Part shown: one piece after another, positions 5,838 to 23,238 of the stretch | How positions within the stretch are numbered: the stretch's first letter is position 1 | Layout of the letters: every line of letters begins with the position of its first letter | Virus record (IMG/VR): IMGVR_UViG_2531839529_000008 | DNA: 23,343 nucleotides | Origin: a virus | Taxonomy: Duplodnaviria > Heunggongvirae > Uroviricota > Caudoviricetes | Strand: one strand, 5' to 3' | Notes under the pieces: generated by a model | What the model saw: the letters and a program-made list of their open reading frames with translations, nothing else | Databases searched by the model: none | Told to the model about the DNA's origin: nothing | Translations under genes and position numbers: made by a program

Positions 5838-6029
5838 TCATACCTGGTCTCTCTCATCTGCTTCTGCTTTCGCCACCATCATTTCCAGCTTTTGTGAAAG
5901 GGATGCGGCTAACGTATGAAATTCTTCGTCTGTTTCTACTGGTATTGGCACAAACCTGACTCCAATTTGAGCGAGGCTATGTGCCATCTCGATACACGTT
6001 CTTAACTCAACAGGAGATGCTTTGTGCAT
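5838..6029 (-). CDS. Hypothetical early protein (63 aa) at the lambda orf63 position
   Basis: Track ORF; size and position relative to exo match lambda orf63. Confidence 0.5.
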   Translation of the reverse strand: MHKASPVELRTCIEMAHSLAQIGVRFVPIPVETDEEFHTLAASLSQKLEMMVAKAEADERDQV

Positions 6030-8163: not shown

Positions 8164-8296
8164 TTTTTGGGACTCCTGGCTGATTAAGTATGTCGATAAG
8201 GCGTTTCCATCCGTCACGTAATTTACGGGTGATTCGTTCAAGTAAAGATTCGGAAGGGCAGCCAGCAACAGGCCACCCTGCAATGGCATATTGCAT
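8132..8296 (-). CDS. cIII: CIII, FtsH protease inhibitor, 54 aa
   Basis: Hand translation from the ATG at 8296 begins MQYA and ends ...GYPD with TAA at 8132-8134, in a different frame from kil; below the track cutoff. Confidence 0.8.
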   Translation of the reverse strand: MQYAIAGWPVAGCPSESLLERITRKLRDGWKRLIDILNQPGVPKNGSNTYGYPD

Positions 8297-8368
8297 GGTG
8301 TGCTCCTTATTTATACATAACGAAAAACGCCTCGAGTGAAGCGTTATTGGTATGCGGTAACGCCGCGC

Positions 8369-13917: not shown

Positions 13918-15564
<1,647 letters not shown>

Positions 15565-15690
15565 TATGGCACCTGTGTTGTTCTGAGGTGAGCATATCAC
15601 CTCTGTTCAGGTGGCCAAATTCAGTAAACCACAACATACCGTATCCAAAGCGGCATTGATGGCGATCGGGCAGGGCGTCAGGAGGGCGGC

Positions 15691-16780: not shown

Positions 16781-16917
16781 TGTTTGAGTTTAATATGGCA
16801 GAACTTCTTCGCCACCGCTGGGGGCGTCTGCGCTTATATCGTTTCCCCGGTTCTGTTTTGACCGATTACCGAATACTGAAGAATTACGCCAAAACACTGA
16901 CAGGAGCAGGAGTATGA
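16777..16917 (+). CDS. ylcG: YlcG-like small protein (46 aa)
   Basis: Hand translation [46 protein letters not shown]; start overlaps the rusA stop. Confidence 0.5.
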
Positions 16918-17002
16918 AGTCAGAGATAACAATCAACTAATACTGTTTTGTTGATTTTTGCTTGTAATTGGCGTTCTGGTCTGAGTTTTGTGGAGTAAGT
17001 TG

Positions 17003-17380
17003 ATGCGTGATATTCAGATGGTTCTTGAGCGTTGGGGAGCGTGGGCGGCTAATAATCATGAAGATGTGACCTGGTCGTCCATTGCCGCCGGTTTTAAGGG
17101 ATTAATTCCTTCAAAAGTAAAATCTCGCCCACAATGTTGTGACGATGACGCGATGATCATTTGCGGGTGCATGGCCCGTCTGAAAAAGAACAACAGCGAT
17201 TTGCATGATTTATTGGTGGACTATTATGTCGGCGGCATGACTTTTATGGCGCTTGCACGTAAGCATGGGCGATCTGATTGTTGGGTTGGCAGGATGCTTC
17301 AGAAAGCTGAGGGCGTAGTGGAGGGTATGCTGATGGTGTTGGATCTCCGATTGGAGATGGATGCTGATTGTTCGAAATAA
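17003..17380 (+). CDS. Q: Late-gene antiterminator Q, phage 82 / DLP12 QuuD type
   Basis: Track ORF 16988-17380 with likely start [18 protein letters not shown]; recognised as QuuD-like. Confidence 0.85.
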
Positions 17381-17479
17381 TTAAAGGAAAAGTTGCTGTC
17401 TGATTGTCATTAGTCTAACATTTTAAATGTTGGAATCACAACGTAGTTATTATCATATAACAGCTTGTTTCCTGATTTA
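17381..17479 (+). promoter_or_regulatory. Inferred PR'/qut late promoter region between Q and the downstream hairpin
   Basis: Position only, by analogy with lambdoid late regulation; promoter hexamers not confidently assigned. Confidence 0.3.
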
Positions 17480-17508
17480 GCCAGCCTCCCCAAAGGCTGG
17501 TTTTTTTC
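17480..17508 (+). terminator. Rho-independent terminator (tR'-like) downstream of Q
   Basis: Hairpin ccagcc-tccccaaa-ggctgg followed by TTTTTTT (17501-17507). Confidence 0.7.
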
Positions 17509-17535
17509 TAATAAGTATTATTTCGGGTAGGGATT

Positions 17536-18060
17536 TTATTGTTTAACCCATAATAATTCATTGACATTGAATCCCAACTTTTGAGCGGTTCGCACATAGT
17601 CTGCTTTTACTTTATCTGGAATAGTTGGGGTCCTTGCCAGAATCCATAGGTATTCTCTGTTCGGACCACTGACAAGAGCATACTTATACTCATCATCCAG
17701 TTTGATTACATTATAGCCACCATAGAAGGGGCCAAAAAACGAAACCTTCAATGCTGCAGTTTTAGTATCTCCAGTAAAGTATGCTTTACCTTCGCTCTCG
17801 CTCCATTTATTTTTCGTTGGATCGTATCCACGGTTAAGTACACGAATCCCTCCGTCGTTCCGTTTTCCATAAGTAGCGCTGACCTGTTCCAGACCACGTT
17901 CGAACCGGTTCTCGAGGCGAGCTATTTCATACCATTTTCCGAGGTAGCGGTTGGCGTCAAAATTTGTAATCGGCTGCACACCTTTAGGTGGTGTCGGGGC
18001 CTTACATGCTATAAGAGTGAAAGAGAGTGCAATGCCAGTCAACACAGGCCATAACTTCAT
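17536..18060 (-). CDS. Blc-like bacterial lipocalin, outer-membrane lipoprotein (174 aa)
   Basis: Track ORF; lipobox LIAC; lipocalin motifs (NFDANRYLGKWYEIAR, TAALKVSFFGPFYGGYNVI) recognised as a paralogue of E. coli Blc; transcribed opposite to late genes. Confidence 0.85.
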   Translation of the reverse strand: MKLWPVLTGIALSFTLIACKAPTPPKGVQPITNFDANRYLGKWYEIARLENRFERGLEQVSATYGKRNDGGIRVLNRGYDPTKNKWSESEGKAYFTGDTKTAALKVSFFGPFYGGYNVIKLDDEYKYALVSGPNREYLWILARTPTIPDKVKADYVRTAQKLGFNVNELLWVKQ

Positions 18061-18252
18061 AATAAATCCTGTACTTTTGATAGTTGAGAGTAAGTATGAA
18101 AGATAGATGATTACGACCGATCACTTAAAGAACTTTCATACTATATTAGGAATAGTCCATAACAGAAAAATTGTCAGTGATGACGCCAGAAAGGCAATTT
18201 ATTCCGTGCACTACACAGTTTATGTGTTAATGAATTAGTCAAGGGGGAGAAT

Positions 18253-19212
18253 ATGATAAAAAAACCTGTGATTGGAATCAGCGGTTGTTTGGCCGGTTCT
18301 GCTGTTCGTTTTGATGGTGGTCACAAAAGAGCTGACTTTTTAATGGACAAATTAGTGGAATGGGTAACATTCAGACCAGTATGTCCGGAAATGGCTATAG
18401 GGCTGCCAGTTCCGCGTCCTGCTCTACGTCTTGTGCGCTCGATGCAAGGAAATATACGGATGTGTTTCAGCCACGACCAGAATGAGGATGTGACAGAGAG
18501 AATGACAGAGTTTAGTCGTTCTTATATGGACAAATTAAAGGATGTATCGGGGTTTGTGGTTTGTGCTAAATCTCCCAGCTGTGGCATGGAGCGCGTGCGT
18601 GTCTATGATGAAAATGGTAATCGAGGTCGTAAAGATGGAGTGGGACTATTTACGAGCACTTTGATGGAAAAGTTTTCCTGGCTACCGGTTGAAGAGGATG
18701 GGCGATTACATGATCCAGTGCTTCGTGAGAATTTTGTTGAAAGAGTTTTTGCTTTGCATGAGCTCAATCACCTTTACAAGGAGAAATTATCAAGAAGAGA
18801 GTTATTAGCTTTTCATAGTCGTTATAAGCTTCAGTTGTTGGCGCATAGTCAGGCAGGCTATAAAGATATGGGACCATTTGTGGCTGCAATACACGAGTGG
18901 GCGGACCTTGAATCATACTTTGAGGTGTATCGTGATAAGCTGATGGCGATTCTCAGAAAACCTGCATCACGTAAAAATCACACGAATGTGCTGATGCATA
19001 TACAGGGGTATTTTAGTAACTACTTAAGTACACGCCAGCGTAAAGAGTTGAGCGAGGTTATACTTAACTATCGTTCTGGCACATTACCTCTTCTTGCGCC
19101 GTTGACTCTGCTGAAGCATTATCTGGGTGAGTATCCTAATGATTACTTGCTTACACAGAATTACTTCGATCCCTATCCGGACGAACTGGCTCTAAGACTG
19201 ATGGTAAATTAA
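18253..19212 (+). CDS. DUF523 (TudS-like Fe-S desulfidase) fused to DUF1722, 319 aa; RudS/YbgA-like
   Basis: Track ORF with strong Shine-Dalgarno (AAGGGGGAGAATATG); conserved Cys residues in the N-terminal half (GISGCLAG, VCPEM, SPSCGME); domain call from memory. Confidence 0.7.
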   Translation: MIKKPVIGISGCLAGSAVRFDGGHKRADFLMDKLVEWVTFRPVCPEMAIGLPVPRPALRLVRSMQGNIRMCFSHDQNEDVTERMTEFSRSYMDKLKDVSGFVVCAKSPSCGMERVRVYDENGNRGRKDGVGLFTSTLMEKFSWLPVEEDGRLHDPVLRENFVERVFALHELNHLYKEKLSRRELLAFHSRYKLQLLAHSQAGYKDMGPFVAAIHEWADLESYFEVYRDKLMAILRKPASRKNHTNVLMHIQGYFSNYLSTRQRKELSEVILNYRSGTLPLLAPLTLLKHYLGEYPNDYLLTQNYFDPYPDELALRLMVN

Positions 19213-19563
19213 TTGTATGCGATATCATCCAAAAGGATGAGTTCCTGCATGCAGGATATTTACAATCGTAAAAACTACACTATGATACCCAGAGTGTCAG
19301 TTTGTATAAAAACTCTGTTTACGCTGAAGAAACAATTGAGATGCAACTTAAAGTTGGTAAACATGCCAGTCAAAATATATAATATTATGATTCCACGCAG
19401 CTATATATAATATAACAGATTGGTTTAATAATTTGTCTTTGTGAGTTAAATACATAATTTTATACTTGTGATGTAATGAAATTTTCCTTATTGTTGAACT
19501 GGCGAATATTGATTTTCCACCTATACTTACCTGGTGTAACCCCAATGATATCAGGTGGATAAT

Positions 19564-20294
19564 ATGCCATACATATGTTCTATCATTTTGGTGTTGAATT
19601 CGTTTGATGTCCGAATTGGTAAAGAAGATATTTTGTTTAAAAAAGGAAATGCTGTTCTCATTGATTACAATTTAAAAGATTTTTTTCATCAAATATAGAT
19701 CATGTAATGATCGTAGATGTTGAAGAAAAAACAGTTAATGATTTCTTTAAAAGCAACACACTCTCACCTTTTTCTGTAAGAAGGTTTTATCCGGCATACT
19801 TGATGGTGGAATGTGAAGATTTTTCATTGTTAAAGAACTTGATTGCATGCTTGAATTGTGATGGCAGAACTGTGGATTTTGTTAGAAATCAAATATCACT
19901 TGCATGTCTTGCTATCTTATCTTCAGAGAAAATAGTGCAAAGTTTTTTATTTGGATGTCTTAATAGTTTAGGAAGTAAAGTTAAGGCTATTATTCACACG
20001 GATATATCTGCAGCATGGAGACTTTGTGATATATCTTCAAGACTGTATCTGAGTGAAAGTCTGTTAAAAAGAAAATTAAAGCACGAAGGCTTATCATTTA
20101 GTAAGTTAATTCTTGAAGAGCGAATGGTGATGGCGGAAAGCTTATTAAGCTACAATTTATATTCTGTTGGAAAAGTTGCTGAGATATGCGGTTATGAAAA
20201 CACGTCATATTTTGTAAGTGTTTTCAGAAGGTATTTTGGTGTTCCTCCCCATCAATATTCATCAAGATTTTTTTTAGAAAAAGACATGATGTAA
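19564..20294 (+). pseudogene. AppY-like AraC-family transcriptional regulator, disrupted: 44-codon N-terminal fragment (19564-19698) then a 195-aa C-terminal ORF (19707-20294) in another frame
   Basis: C-terminal AraC-type HTH (GYENTSYFVSVFRRYFGVPPHQY); N-terminal fragment MPYICSIILVLNSFDVRIGKEDILFKKGNAVLI resembles the AppY N-terminus; stops in all three frames at 19696-19712; very AT-rich. Confidence 0.6.
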
Positions 20295-20481
20295 CGTGAT
20301 GCGTTTTAATGATTTTGTAATTTTCGTATTTGATAATTGTATGATGCTTTCAGCTACGCCAGAATAATCGCGGCGTTTTTCTTTTTGAATAGATGTTCAA
20401 GCCTTACGCTAATGTAACTTCTATACCTTTCCTCTTCGTTCCGAACCGTGTACACCATCCGTTATTTGCGGAGGTGAGGCT

Positions 20482-20697
20482 ATGAAATCCATGGATAAGT
20501 TAACAACGGGCATTGCCTACGGCACCTCCGCAGGCAGTGCTGGCTACTGGTTTTTACAGCTGCTCGATAAAGTCACGCCCTCACAGTGGGCAGCAATAGG
20601 TGTGCTGGGTAGCTTGGTATTTGGCCTGCTGACGTACCTGACAAACCTTTATTTCAAGATTAAAGAAGATAAGCGCAAGGCTGCGAGAGGTGAATAA
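20482..20697 (+). CDS. essD: Class II holin (pinholin), phage 21 S / DLP12 EssD type, with dual-start motif MKSM
   Basis: 71-aa track ORF recognised as S21-like; Met1-Lys-Ser-Met4 dual start. Confidence 0.9.
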
Positions 20698-21194
20698 TGC
20701 CTCCATCATTACGAAAAGCCGTTGCTGCTGCTATTGGTGGCGGAGCAATTGCTATAGCATCAGTGTTAATTACTGGCCCAAGTGGTAACGATGGTCTGGA
20801 AGGTGTCAGCTACATACCATACAAAGATATTGTTGGTGTATGGACTGTATGTCACGGGCATACAGGAAAAGACATCATACTCGGTAAAACGTATACCAAA
20901 GCAGAATGCAAAACACTCTTGAATAAAGACCTTGCCACGGTCGCCAGACAAATTAACCCGTACATCAAAGTCGATATACCGGAAACAACGCGCGGCGCTC
21001 TTTACTCGTTCGTCTATAACGTGGGCGCAGGCAATTTCAGAACATCTACTCTTCTTCGCAAAATAAACCAGGGCGATATCAAGGGCGCATGTGACCAGCT
21101 ACGTCGCTGGGCATACGCTGGCGGTAAGCAATGGAAAGGCCTGATGACTCGTCGTGAGATTGAGCGTGAGGTCTGTTTGTGGGGGCAACAATGA
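20697..21194 (+). CDS. rrrD: SAR endolysin (phage lysozyme), R21 / RrrD type
   Basis: 165-aa track ORF; N-terminal Gly/Ala-rich signal-arrest-release segment ([18 protein letters not shown]); start overlaps the holin stop. Confidence 0.9.
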
Positions 21195-22149: not shown

Positions 22150-22560
22150 TTAGTGCGGAAATATTTGTGTAGTGTTCTGAATGTTCTCAGTAAAGAGTAA
22201 TGAATTATCAAAGGTATAGTAATACCTTTTGTTTTCGTGGATATTTGTAATCCATCTGAAAACCCCTGCTGTAGCAAGATTTTTCCTGTATTCGTAAAAT
22301 GATAACTCTCCTGATTTGAATCCTTTTAAGGTGGCTTCTATAAGGCATTTATTTTTTGAAAATCTTACATTTACAACCTTACCCTGTCCTTTTATTAAAA
22401 CCGTATTATCGTTTTCAAGAACAAGATGAATATTCTCTGTAGCTAAATAGTAAATGTAATGTGAGACATTGTGACGTTTTAGTTCAGAATAAAACCAGTG
22501 ATAGTTTAAATTATTTCGCACTTTATCGAATATTTGTTTAAAAATGGCAACCTGAGCCAT
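22150..22560 (-). CDS. ybcV: YbcV-like protein (DUF1398, annotated in DLP12 as putative envelope protein)
   Basis: Internal start [11 protein letters not shown] of track ORF 22150-22575; recognised as DLP12 YbcV-like. Confidence 0.7.
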
Positions 22561-22616
22561 TGTAGTACCTTCCATGTGATATGAGGGGCGTAGTCTGCAC
22601 GATTATCTAAATTGCT

Positions 22617-22850
22617 TCAATCTGGTCTGATCTGTTTTCTGAGCAATTCAGTAATGTCACTCTTTTCTTTGTTTGCTTCAGGAGAAACTCTTTTTTCTGA
22701 GCACAGTCTCCGGCGGCAGGCTTCAATGACCCAGGCTGAGAAATTCCCGGACCCTTTTTGATCAAGAGCGATGTTAATTTGTTCAATCATTTGGTTAGGA
22801 AAGCGGATGTTGCGGATTGTTGTTCTGCGGGTTCTGTTCTTCGTTGACAT
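22617..22850 (-). CDS. Hypothetical small basic protein (77 aa), possible ribbon-helix-helix DNA-binding protein
   Basis: Track ORF upstream of the ybcV-like gene on the same strand; fold assignment is a guess from composition. Confidence 0.4.
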   Translation of the reverse strand: MSTKNRTRRTTIRNIRFPNQMIEQINIALDQKGSGNFSAWVIEACRRRLCSEKRVSPEANKEKSDITELLRKQIRPD

Positions 22851-23019
22851 GAGGTTGTCCCGTATTTAGTGTCGCTGATTTGTATTGTCTGAAGTTGTTT
22901 TTACGTTAAGTTGATGCAGATCAATTAATATGATACCTGCGTCATAATTGATTATTTGACGTGGTTTGATGGCGTAGATGCACGTTGTGACATGCAGATG
23001 ATAATTATTATCATTTTGC

Positions 23020-23238
23020 GGGTCCTTTCCGGCGATCCGACCGGTTACGGGGCGGCGACCTCGCGGGTTTTCGCTATTTATGAAAAATTTCCGGTTTAAG
23101 GCGTTTCCGTTCTTCTTCGTCATAACTTAATGTTTTTATTTAAAATACCCTCTGAAAAGAAAGGAAACGACAGGTGCTGAAAGCGAGCTTTTTGGCCTCT
23201 GTCGTTTCCTTTCTCTGTTTTTGTCCGTGGAATGAACA
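23020..23238 (+). other. cos: cos packaging site region: cosN cohesive-end sequence GGGCGGCGACCT at 23049-23060, cosB downstream
   Basis: Sequence from 23049 to the window end matches the remembered start of the lambda genome almost base for base. Confidence 0.9.

What the first reader, a model, noticed from the sequence alone, without database searches (positions are those of the whole stretch)
17536..18060. Prophage-borne Blc-like outer-membrane lipocalin transcribed against the late operon
A clear lipocalin lipoprotein is encoded between Q and the holin on the opposite strand from late transcription, which is typical of a moron expressed in the lysogen. Lipocalins of this type bind lipids in the outer membrane, so a phage copy could alter envelope properties, stress tolerance or phage adsorption.
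Basis: partly seen in the sequence, partly recalled or inferred. Interest (0 to 1): 0.45.

Follow-up and report, generated by a model that had tools for sequence, protein, structure and literature searches.

The report
Known lipocalin cargo gene in lambda-like prophage
The gene is a real outer-membrane lipocalin of the Blc family, carried with two other cargo genes between Q and the lysis genes of a lambda-like E. coli prophage; it is common and already described, and its role in the lysogen has never been tested.

Summary
Observation confirmed. Window 17536-18060 (- strand) encodes a 174-aa lipoprotein with a Blc-family lipocalin fold. It lies between Q and the holin, antisense to late transcription.

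It is not new. The same cassette (Q | blc | rudS | araC-like | holin) is in 979 of 5426 complete E. coli genomes and in 12 isolated lambdoid phages, where it is annotated 'Lipocalin Blc'. Mathieu et al. 2020 already list blc as a moron in more than 50% of gut lambda phages.

What this analysis adds:
- It is not a copy of E. coli's own blc (63% identity). It belongs to a second Blc lineage (about 80% identity) that in Enterobacter, Leclercia and Buttiauxella chromosomes faces a merR-(transthyretin-like)-rudS operon.
- It travels with rudS, a tRNA 4-thiouridine desulfidase whose phage 1H12 copy has been assayed. The MerR regulator is missing from the phage.
- The gene is under strong purifying selection (dN/dS about 0.06, 81/81 copies intact). 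18 of 19 Blc pocket residues are identical. The 96 nt upstream of it are conserved.

Expression in the lysogen, the ligand and any phenotype remain untested. Low novelty, modest interest.

The parts
17536..18060 (-). blc-type lipocalin gene (174 aa). Signal peptide 1-18, lipobox L-I-A-C19, Lys +2. Mature domain is an 8-stranded barrel plus a C-terminal helix.
18061..18252 (.). 192-bp divergent intergenic region between blc and rudS. The blc-proximal 96 nt are conserved (4% divergence, against 16% in the other half). Candidate -10 CATACT at 18094-18099 (- strand). Motif GTGCACTACAC at 18206-18216 (+).
18253..19212 (+). rudS (TudS + DUF1722, 319 aa), a tRNA 4-thiouridine desulfidase. It is 93% identical to the assayed RudS_vir of phage 1H12, and Cys12/44/110 are present.
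19555..20294 (+). AraC-family regulator gene, about 30% GC. It is 243 aa in most copies. In the window it is frameshifted by loss of one T from a T8 run near 19679.
17479..17510 (+). Intrinsic terminator (9-bp stem plus U7) 100 nt downstream of Q, interpreted as the tR'-type terminator that Q overrides. On the - strand the same hairpin follows the blc stop but has no U-tract.
17363..20470 (.). The whole exchangeable Q-to-holin module. Homology to a porin-carrying lambdoid phage (ev243) ends at 17362 and resumes at 20471.
16988..17380 (+). Late antiterminator Q (left border of the slot).
20482..20697 (+). P21-type holin (right border of the slot).

Best explanation
The ORF encodes a functional Blc-family bacterial lipocalin. 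By analogy with E. coli Blc, the precursor is exported, lipidated at Cys19 and, with Lys at +2, sorted by Lol to the outer membrane. There its beta-barrel cup binds a small hydrophobic ligand of the kind Blc binds (lysophospholipid or fatty acid, or a tetrapyrrole). It is prophage cargo: one gene of a fixed three-gene cassette (blc, rudS, araC-like) filling the exchangeable slot between Q/pR'/tR' and the holin of lambda-like E. coli phages. The blc-rudS pair derives from an enterobacterial chromosomal locus in which blc faces a merR-(transthyretin-like)-rudS operon; the phage copy has lost the MerR regulator. Because blc is antisense to the late operon, it must use its own promoter in the conserved 96 nt upstream. 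It would then be made in the lysogen and opposed by Q-antiterminated transcription after induction. rudS and araC are co-oriented with late transcription. The likely benefit is a second envelope lipocalin alongside E. coli's own Blc, plus RudS, which E. coli lacks, for tolerance of envelope or near-UV/photo-oxidative stress. Shown here: gene identity, fold, pocket conservation, cassette structure, origin, selection and prevalence. Inferred: localisation, ligand, promoter, timing of expression and benefit.
For: - Identity and fold. The AlphaFold model built from a 41-sequence alignment has pLDDT 84 and pTM 0.80. Foldseek against Blc crystal structures gives TM 0.84-0.92 and rmsd 1.6-2.2 A.
- Pocket: 18/19 heme/ligand-contact residues of E. 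coli Blc (PMC8177097) are identical and one is K77R, against 63% overall identity (P about 0.002).
- Lipoprotein signal: it is invariant in homologues.
- Selection: 81/81 phage copies are intact; dN/dS is 0.06 between allele groups with dS 0.20.
- Upstream region: the 96 nt upstream of blc diverge 4%, against 16% in the rudS-proximal half.
- Gene order: it is invariant in 80 IMG/VR contigs, 979/5426 E. coli genomes and 12 isolated phages.
- Slot: it is exchangeable, with an antisense porin in other phages.
- Origin: loci with blc (about 80% identity) facing merR-(ttr)-rudS (about 72% identity) occur in Enterobacter, Leclercia, Buttiauxella, Raoultella and the closest metagenomic relatives. Canonical blc sits at frdD-(ampC)-blc-sugE at about 60% identity, and Buttiauxella izardii has both.
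- RudS: its function, the activity of the 1H12 copy, and the fact that E. coli lacks RudS come from PMC11417400.
- Prior description: blc is already called a moron in PMC6969025.
Against: - No expression data of any kind.
- The consensus promoter scan finds no sigma-70 site on the - strand in 18061-18252. The candidate -10 is my own reading.
- blc has no canonical terminator of its own; the hairpin on the - strand lacks a U-tract.
- The phage intergenic region is not alignable to the chromosomal one. The one shared 11-mer sits upstream of rudS, not blc, so regulation cannot be transferred from the chromosomal locus.
- Blc's own physiological ligand and role are unsettled (PMC8177097).
- The link to light or UVA rests on the RudS paper's inference for MerR-adjacent rudS, not on data for this lipocalin.
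Confidence: 0.7

Rival explanations
1. Blc and RudS act together as a near-UV/blue-light (photo-oxidative) protection module captured by the phage without its photoregulator. RudS removes the photosensitive s4U from tRNA. The lipocalin sequesters photosensitising tetrapyrroles or photo-oxidised lipids in the envelope.
For: blc and rudS are linked in chromosomes across several genera under a MerR/MlrA-type regulator. RudS genes are often in light-responsive operons, and MerR-adjacent rudS in E. cloacae is proposed to be light-inducible (PMC11417400). E. coli Blc binds heme/hematoporphyrin at low micromolar affinity (PMC8177097), and the pocket is 18/19 conserved. A shared 11-mer lies upstream of chromosomal blc and of phage rudS.
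Against: There is no direct evidence that this MerR-type regulator senses light or controls blc. No photolyase or carotenoid genes lie in the loci inspected. The regulator is absent from the phage. Gut E. coli see little light. Gene linkage alone does not prove joint function.
Confidence: 0.15
2. The lipocalin is a superinfection-exclusion or receptor-masking lipoprotein. Like the outer-membrane lipoproteins Llp (T5) and Cor (phi80/N15), it alters or blocks an outer-membrane phage receptor in the lysogen.
For: It is a prophage-borne outer-membrane lipoprotein in a slot that otherwise holds a porin, which is a receptor-type protein. Mathieu et al. note a predominance of membrane-protein morons. 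This is analogy only (my knowledge of Llp and Cor).
Against: The protein is an orthodox Blc with a conserved ligand pocket. Its closest relatives are chromosomal housekeeping-type genes, not phage genes. No similarity to Llp or Cor was detected in any search. PHROGs lists the family as unknown function.
Confidence: 0.05
3. The gene is a passenger with no role of its own. It rides with rudS or araC, or is maintained only because the whole Q-holin module recombines as a unit.
For: The cassette always moves as one block, so selection on a neighbour could carry it. The neighbouring AraC-like gene is frameshifted in the window and in about 12 of 67 copies, so not all of the cargo is always maintained.
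Against: dN/dS is about 0.06 with dS 0.20, 81/81 ORFs are intact, pocket residues are conserved and the upstream region is conserved. All of these indicate selection on the protein itself since the allele groups diverged. A Morganella phage independently acquired a Blc-like lipoprotein in another slot.
Confidence: 0.08

Closest known systems
E. coli Blc (outer-membrane lipoprotein lipocalin; PDB 1QWD, 2ACO, 3MBT)
   Same: Same length and domain organisation, with a gapless alignment. Lipobox Cys at the same position. Same fold (TM 0.84-0.92). 18/19 pocket residues identical. It passes the NCBIfam Blc threshold.
   Different: Only 63% identical, with no detectable DNA similarity to chromosomal E. 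coli blc. The genomic context differs: canonical blc lies at frdD-(ampC)-blc-sugE, while this lineage lies beside merR-rudS or in a prophage.
blc moron of gut lambda phages (Mathieu et al. 2020, PMC6969025; phage 1H12 gp65 'Lipocalin Blc')
   Same: The same gene in the same slot and orientation; 97% amino-acid identity to the 1H12 copy.
   Different: None of substance. The window's copy belongs to a different allele group (about 5% nucleotide divergence), and its prophage carries an IS insertion and an araC frameshift.
Chromosomal second-lineage blc facing merR-(transthyretin-like)-rudS in Enterobacter, Leclercia, Buttiauxella and Raoultella
   Same: Closest cellular relatives (74-82% amino-acid identity). 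The same divergent pairing with rudS.
   Different: The phage has lost the MerR-type regulator and the transthyretin-like gene, has an unalignable intergenic region, and has gained an AT-rich AraC-like gene.
nmpC/ompD porin moron in the Q-holin slot of DLP12-type and other lambdoid phages
   Same: The same slot, also antisense to late transcription, and also an outer-membrane protein.
   Different: Unrelated protein: a beta-barrel porin rather than a lipocalin lipoprotein.
Bor and Lom of phage lambda (lysogen-expressed envelope proteins)
   Same: Prophage-encoded outer-membrane proteins regarded as lysogenic-conversion genes. Bor is also a lipoprotein (my knowledge; a Bor-like gene is annotated in 1H12).
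   Different: No sequence or fold relationship. Bor has a demonstrated serum-resistance phenotype, while this gene has no tested phenotype.

Membership tests
Blc family (bacterial outer-membrane lipocalin, NCBIfam NF007786 / Pfam PF08212) | Sequence match above the curated family threshold over the full length | tested here: met
   316 bits against a cutoff of 267, covering 1-174 of 176; PF08212 E=7e-44
Blc family (bacterial outer-membrane lipocalin, NCBIfam NF007786 / Pfam PF08212) | Eight-stranded antiparallel beta-barrel with a C-terminal alpha-helix (lipocalin fold) | tested here: met
   Model pLDDT 84, strands E41-142 plus helix H149-161. TM 0.84-0.92 to 1QWD, 2ACO and 3MBT.
Blc family (bacterial outer-membrane lipocalin, NCBIfam NF007786 / Pfam PF08212) | Type II (lipoprotein) signal peptide with a lipobox Cys and a non-Asp +2 residue for outer-membrane sorting | tested here: met
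   Sequence L-I-A-C19-K20; L16, A18 and C19 are invariant in 41 homologues. Actual lipidation and localisation cannot be tested here.
Blc family (bacterial outer-membrane lipocalin, NCBIfam NF007786 / Pfam PF08212) | Conserved ligand-pocket residues of E. coli Blc | tested here: met
   18/19 identical, K77R
Blc family (bacterial outer-membrane lipocalin, NCBIfam NF007786 / Pfam PF08212) | Binding of lysophospholipid/fatty acid or tetrapyrrole; stationary-phase/stress induction | not testable with these tools
   Needs a purified protein and reporter assays
Orthologue of E. coli chromosomal blc (frdD-ampC-blc-sugE locus) | Closest relationship to, and shared synteny with, the canonical blc | tested here: not met
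   63% identity against about 80% to the merR-rudS-linked lineage. Canonical loci have different neighbours, and both lineages coexist in Buttiauxella izardii.
Moron (Hendrix/Juhala sense) | An extra gene lying between genes that are adjacent in related phages | tested here: met
   The Q-holin slot holds different cargo (a porin) in related phages, with sharp homology breaks at 17362 and 20471
Moron (Hendrix/Juhala sense) | Own promoter | tested here: inconclusive
   No consensus sigma-70 hit on the - strand. The 96 nt upstream are conserved (4% against 16%), with a CATACT -10-like element.
Moron (Hendrix/Juhala sense) | Own terminator | tested here: not met
   Only the + strand tR'-type terminator is canonical. 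On the blc strand the hairpin lacks a U-tract and does not fold better than shuffled sequences (z = -0.7).
Moron (Hendrix/Juhala sense) | Distinct base composition / foreign origin | tested here: met
   The cassette is 30-45% GC against about 50% in the flanks. The closest relatives are chromosomal genes of other genera.
Moron (Hendrix/Juhala sense) | Expression from the repressed prophage | not testable with these tools
   Needs a lysogen transcriptome or proteome

The most novel reading that the evidence does not exclude
The lipocalin and RudS together form a two-part near-UV/blue-light damage module: tRNA s4U erasure plus envelope sequestration of photosensitising tetrapyrroles or photo-oxidised lipids. 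Lambda-like phages would have captured it from an Enterobacter-like merR-rudS/blc locus and stripped it of its MerR regulator. About one in five E. coli would then carry phage-supplied protection against the kind of radiation stress that also induces prophages. rudS would be boosted by late transcription and blc restricted to the lysogen.
Probability: 0.12. Interest if true: 0.55.

Novelty: already known. Interest (0 to 1): 0.22.

Why it matters
About 19% of complete E. coli genomes carry this phage-borne second lipocalin together with RudS, an enzyme that E. coli otherwise lacks. Even a modest phenotype would therefore be widespread among gut and clinical isolates. The physiological role of bacterial Blc lipocalins has been unsettled since 1995 (lysophospholipid or tetrapyrrole). 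A naturally mobile, strongly conserved copy that is genetically linked to a defined tRNA-photodamage enzyme gives a concrete lead for experiments. As a discovery the gene is not new: it is annotated in RefSeq and in phage records, and it is named as a moron in the literature.

Tried and rejected
1. Capture of E. coli's own blc. Rejected: 63% amino-acid identity, and no DNA-level hit to chromosomal blc even in distant mode. The only 60-80% DNA hits were plasmid blc copies.
2. Single-sequence AlphaFold. The model was uninformative (pLDDT 45); it was redone with an alignment.
3. Transferring the chromosomal promoter or operator to the phage. DNA similarity stops at the coding boundaries.
4. The perfect 10-nt inverted repeat CTTTCATACT (18093-18102 / 18133-18142) as an operator or hairpin. 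Rejected: the 1H12-type alleles carry non-compensating changes in both arms.
5. Looking for a donor with the phage-like regulator-less arrangement among the closest relatives (82% identity). All of them still carry merR and the transthyretin-like gene. Only Huaxiibacter lacks merR.
6. Rfam scan for RNA elements in the cassette: none found.
7. Literature search for a phenotype or expression data for the phage lipocalin: none found.
8. The consensus promoter scan gave no more hits than shuffled sequences, and none on the blc strand in the intergenic region.

Full report
**1. The observation**

Window 17536-18060 on the - strand is an uninterrupted 174-codon ORF. It starts at ATG and has AGGA 7 nt upstream.
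- It matches Pfam Lipocalin_2 at E=7e-44.
- It scores 316 bits over its full length against NCBIfam 'outer membrane lipoprotein Blc', where the curated cutoff is 267.
- It aligns without gaps to the crystallised E. coli Blc (3MBT, 1QWD, 2ACO; E about 1e-68).
- The N-terminus MKLWPVLTGIALSFTLIAC|K carries a lipobox (L-I-A-C19) with Lys at +2. L16, A18 and C19 are invariant in 41 homologues.

To the left lies Q (16988-17380, +, PF06530). To the right lie a TudS+DUF1722 gene (18253-19212, +), an AraC-family gene (19555-20294, +), a P21-type holin (20482-20697, +), lysozyme and Rz. What the finding omits is that two more cargo genes share the slot.

**2. The fold**

- A single-sequence run was uninformative (pLDDT 45).
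- With a 41-sequence alignment of homologues the model reaches pLDDT 84 and pTM 0.80. It shows eight beta-strands followed by a C-terminal helix.
- Foldseek places the model on the Blc crystal structures, with TM 0.84-0.92 and rmsd 1.6-2.2 A. More distant lipocalins follow (plant TIL, ApoD, sandercyanin).

The gapless alignment preserves Blc numbering, so I checked the 19 residues that line the heme/ligand pocket of E. coli Blc (PMC8177097). Eighteen are identical and one is K77R, against 63% identity overall (P about 0.002). The protein should therefore bind the same class of ligand as Blc. That ligand is itself disputed: lysophospholipid/fatty acid or heme/tetrapyrrole.

**3. The element that carries it**

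The window is a lambda-like prophage at the lambda attachment site next to ybhC. It has a lambda-type integrase, CI/Cro/CII, O/P, the nin genes, Q and a lysis cassette.

How widespread the cassette is:
- The segment 16900-20800 is 100% identical to several E. coli chromosomes.
- The full cassette is present in 979 of 5426 complete E. coli genomes. The lipocalin gene alone is present in 1045.
- It is present in 12 isolated, sequenced lambdoid phages (1H12, the Lambda_ev series, IdasGreatGrand), where the gene is annotated 'Lipocalin Blc'.
- In 80 IMG/VR contigs the order Q | blc(-) | rudS | araC | holin | lysozyme never varies.

Mathieu et al. [quoted passage not shown] The finding is therefore already in the literature and in routine annotation.

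**4. The slot**

I compared the window with phage ev243, which has a closely related Q and holin. Homology stops at 17362, 18 nt before the Q stop codon, and resumes at 20471, 11 nt before the holin ATG. ev243 carries an antisense OmpC/OmpD-type porin gene in this position. The whole interval 17363-20470 is thus an exchangeable module.

The only canonical intrinsic terminator in 16900-20800 is on the + strand at 17479-17502 plus a U7 run. It lies 100 nt after Q. I read it as the tR'-type terminator that Q overrides (inference from lambda biology). After induction, late transcription would then run antisense through blc and sense through rudS and araC before reaching the holin. On the blc strand the same hairpin forms, but without a U-tract and no better than shuffled sequence (z = -0.7). 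blc therefore has no clear terminator of its own.

**5. Origin**

The gene is not a captured copy of E. coli's own blc. It is 63% identical at the protein level, and there is no DNA-level hit to chromosomal blc even in distant mode.

Its closest cellular relatives (74-82% identity) are in Enterobacter, Leclercia, Huaxiibacter, Buttiauxella, Raoultella, Cedecea, Klebsiella and unnamed metagenomic contigs. In ten such loci blc is divergently paired with a rudS homologue (about 72% identical to the phage rudS). In nine of the ten a MerR/MlrA-type regulator lies between them, often with a transthyretin-like gene as well. The closest relatives of all (82% identity) have the same layout.

The canonical blc sits at frdD-(ampC)-blc-sugE and is about 60% identical to the phage protein. 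Buttiauxella izardii has both kinds.

The phage cassette therefore derives from the second, merR-rudS-linked Blc lineage. It has lost the regulator and gained an AT-rich (about 30% GC) AraC-family gene. At about 70% nucleotide identity the true donor has not been sampled, and the intergenic regions are not alignable.

**6. The partner gene**

TudS-DUF1722 fusions were characterised in 2024 as RudS, a desulfidase that removes 4-thiouridine from tRNA and shortens UVA-induced growth delay (PMC11417400). That paper reports the following:
- It synthesised and assayed the phage 1H12 copy ('RudS_vir', gp66) and found tRNA desulfidation activity, weaker than the other variants.
- It notes that E. coli itself lacks RudS.
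- It points to the MerR-adjacent rudS of Enterobacter cloacae as probably light-inducible.

The window's protein is 93% identical to RudS_vir and keeps Cys12, Cys44 and Cys110. That paper does not mention the lipocalin.

**7. Is the gene maintained?**

- All 81 phage copies examined are intact.
- Between the window allele and the 1H12-type allele there are 21 synonymous and 5 non-synonymous differences: dS 0.20, dN 0.012, dN/dS 0.06. This is as constrained as Q and the holin.
- The 96 nt upstream of blc diverge 4%, against 16% in the rudS-proximal half of the same intergenic region. This suggests a constrained promoter or leader.

My candidate -10 element is CATACT (18094-18099, - strand), about 32 nt before the ATG. 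It reads AATACT in the other allele. The consensus scan found nothing on that strand, so this remains a guess.

A perfect 10-nt inverted repeat in the region is not preserved as a palindrome in other alleles. I do not think it is an operator.

**8. An unexplained detail**

The 11-mer GTGCACTACAC occurs exactly once in the window, at 18206-18216, which is 47 nt upstream of rudS. The same 11-mer (0-1 mismatch) lies 44-45 nt upstream of blc in nine of ten chromosomal loci. A simple deletion of merR would not produce this placement. It may be a promoter or regulator site common to both genes. I could not resolve it.

**9. Mechanism and confidence**

- Near-certain: this is a Blc-family lipoprotein lipocalin carried as selected prophage cargo.
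- Probable, by homology: outer-membrane localisation and a Blc-like hydrophobic ligand.
- Plausible but unshown: expression from its own promoter in the lysogen, with interference from late transcription after induction.
- Speculative: any link to near-UV or photo-oxidative stress through its partnership with RudS.

I found no published phenotype.

A Morganella phage has independently acquired a Blc-like lipoprotein (54% identity) in a different slot, co-oriented with the late genes. This hints that lipocalins are recurrently useful cargo.

**10. Verdict**

The finding is already known. The added value here is:
- the cassette context (rudS, araC);
- the chromosomal origin in a second Blc lineage;
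- the loss of the MerR regulator;
- the evidence for selection.

Interest is modest.

Noticed in passing
window 18253-19212 (+): The gene next to the lipocalin is RudS (TudS+DUF1722), a tRNA 4-thiouridine desulfidase. It is 93% identical to the RudS_vir of phage 1H12 assayed in PMC11417400. E. coli has no RudS of its own, so the prophage supplies a new enzymatic activity. The gene is co-oriented with late transcription.
   Followed up: partly
window 19555-20294 (+), indel near 19679-19686: The AraC-family regulator gene (about 30% GC) is 243 aa in most phage copies. In the window it is frameshifted by loss of one T from a T8 run, and about 12 of 67 copies examined are similarly broken. This could be slippage-prone phase variation, decay or sequencing error. 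Its target genes are unknown. The best NCBIfam hit is YdeO, far below threshold.
   Followed up: partly
window 18206-18216 (+); L004-L012 about 5956-5966: The 11-mer GTGCACTACAC lies about 45 nt upstream of rudS in the phage, and about 45 nt upstream of blc in 9 of 10 chromosomal merR-rudS/blc loci. It may be a shared promoter or regulator site. Its placement is not explained by a simple deletion.
   Followed up: partly
window about 14380-15630 (- strand ORFs 14417-15235 and 15262-15600): An IS3-family insertion sequence sits between the phage dam methyltransferase and ninE. It is absent from the closest matching genomes (95% coverage). It lies on the pR-to-Q transcription path and may make this prophage defective for late gene activation.
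   Followed up: no
window 17479-17510 (+): A strong intrinsic terminator (9-bp stem, U7) lies 100 nt after Q and is probably tR'. The blc stop codon is only 26 nt beyond it on the other strand, so the short pR' transcript and the blc transcript converge on one hairpin. blc read-through would run antisense to pR' and Q.
   Followed up: partly
L164 3965-4480 (Morganella phage IME1369_01): An independent Blc-like lipoprotein (54% identity) lies in a different phage and slot, between the lysis genes and the small terminase, co-oriented with the late genes. This suggests recurrent capture of lipocalins by temperate phages.
   Followed up: partly
L003 (2.1-kb contig binned as Candidatus Nanosynbacter): The contig carries Q-blc-rudS at 99-100% identity to the E. 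coli prophage. It is almost certainly a mis-binned E. coli prophage fragment in a MAG.
   Followed up: no
window 22150-23123 (-): AT-rich (about 30-35% GC) antisense ORFs lie after Rz: DUF1398 (141 aa), DUF3950 (77 aa) and an unassigned 85-aa ORF. This is another probable cargo region.
   Followed up: no
window 8251-8309 (-): Rfam Lambda_thermo (cIII thermoregulator), 88.5 bits. This is an ordinary lambda feature and confirms the lambda-like early-left region.
   Followed up: no
L010 4662-5120; L165-L167: In many chromosomal loci a transthyretin/HIUase-family gene sits between the merR-like gene and rudS. Its role in that operon is unknown, and it is absent from the phage.
   Followed up: no
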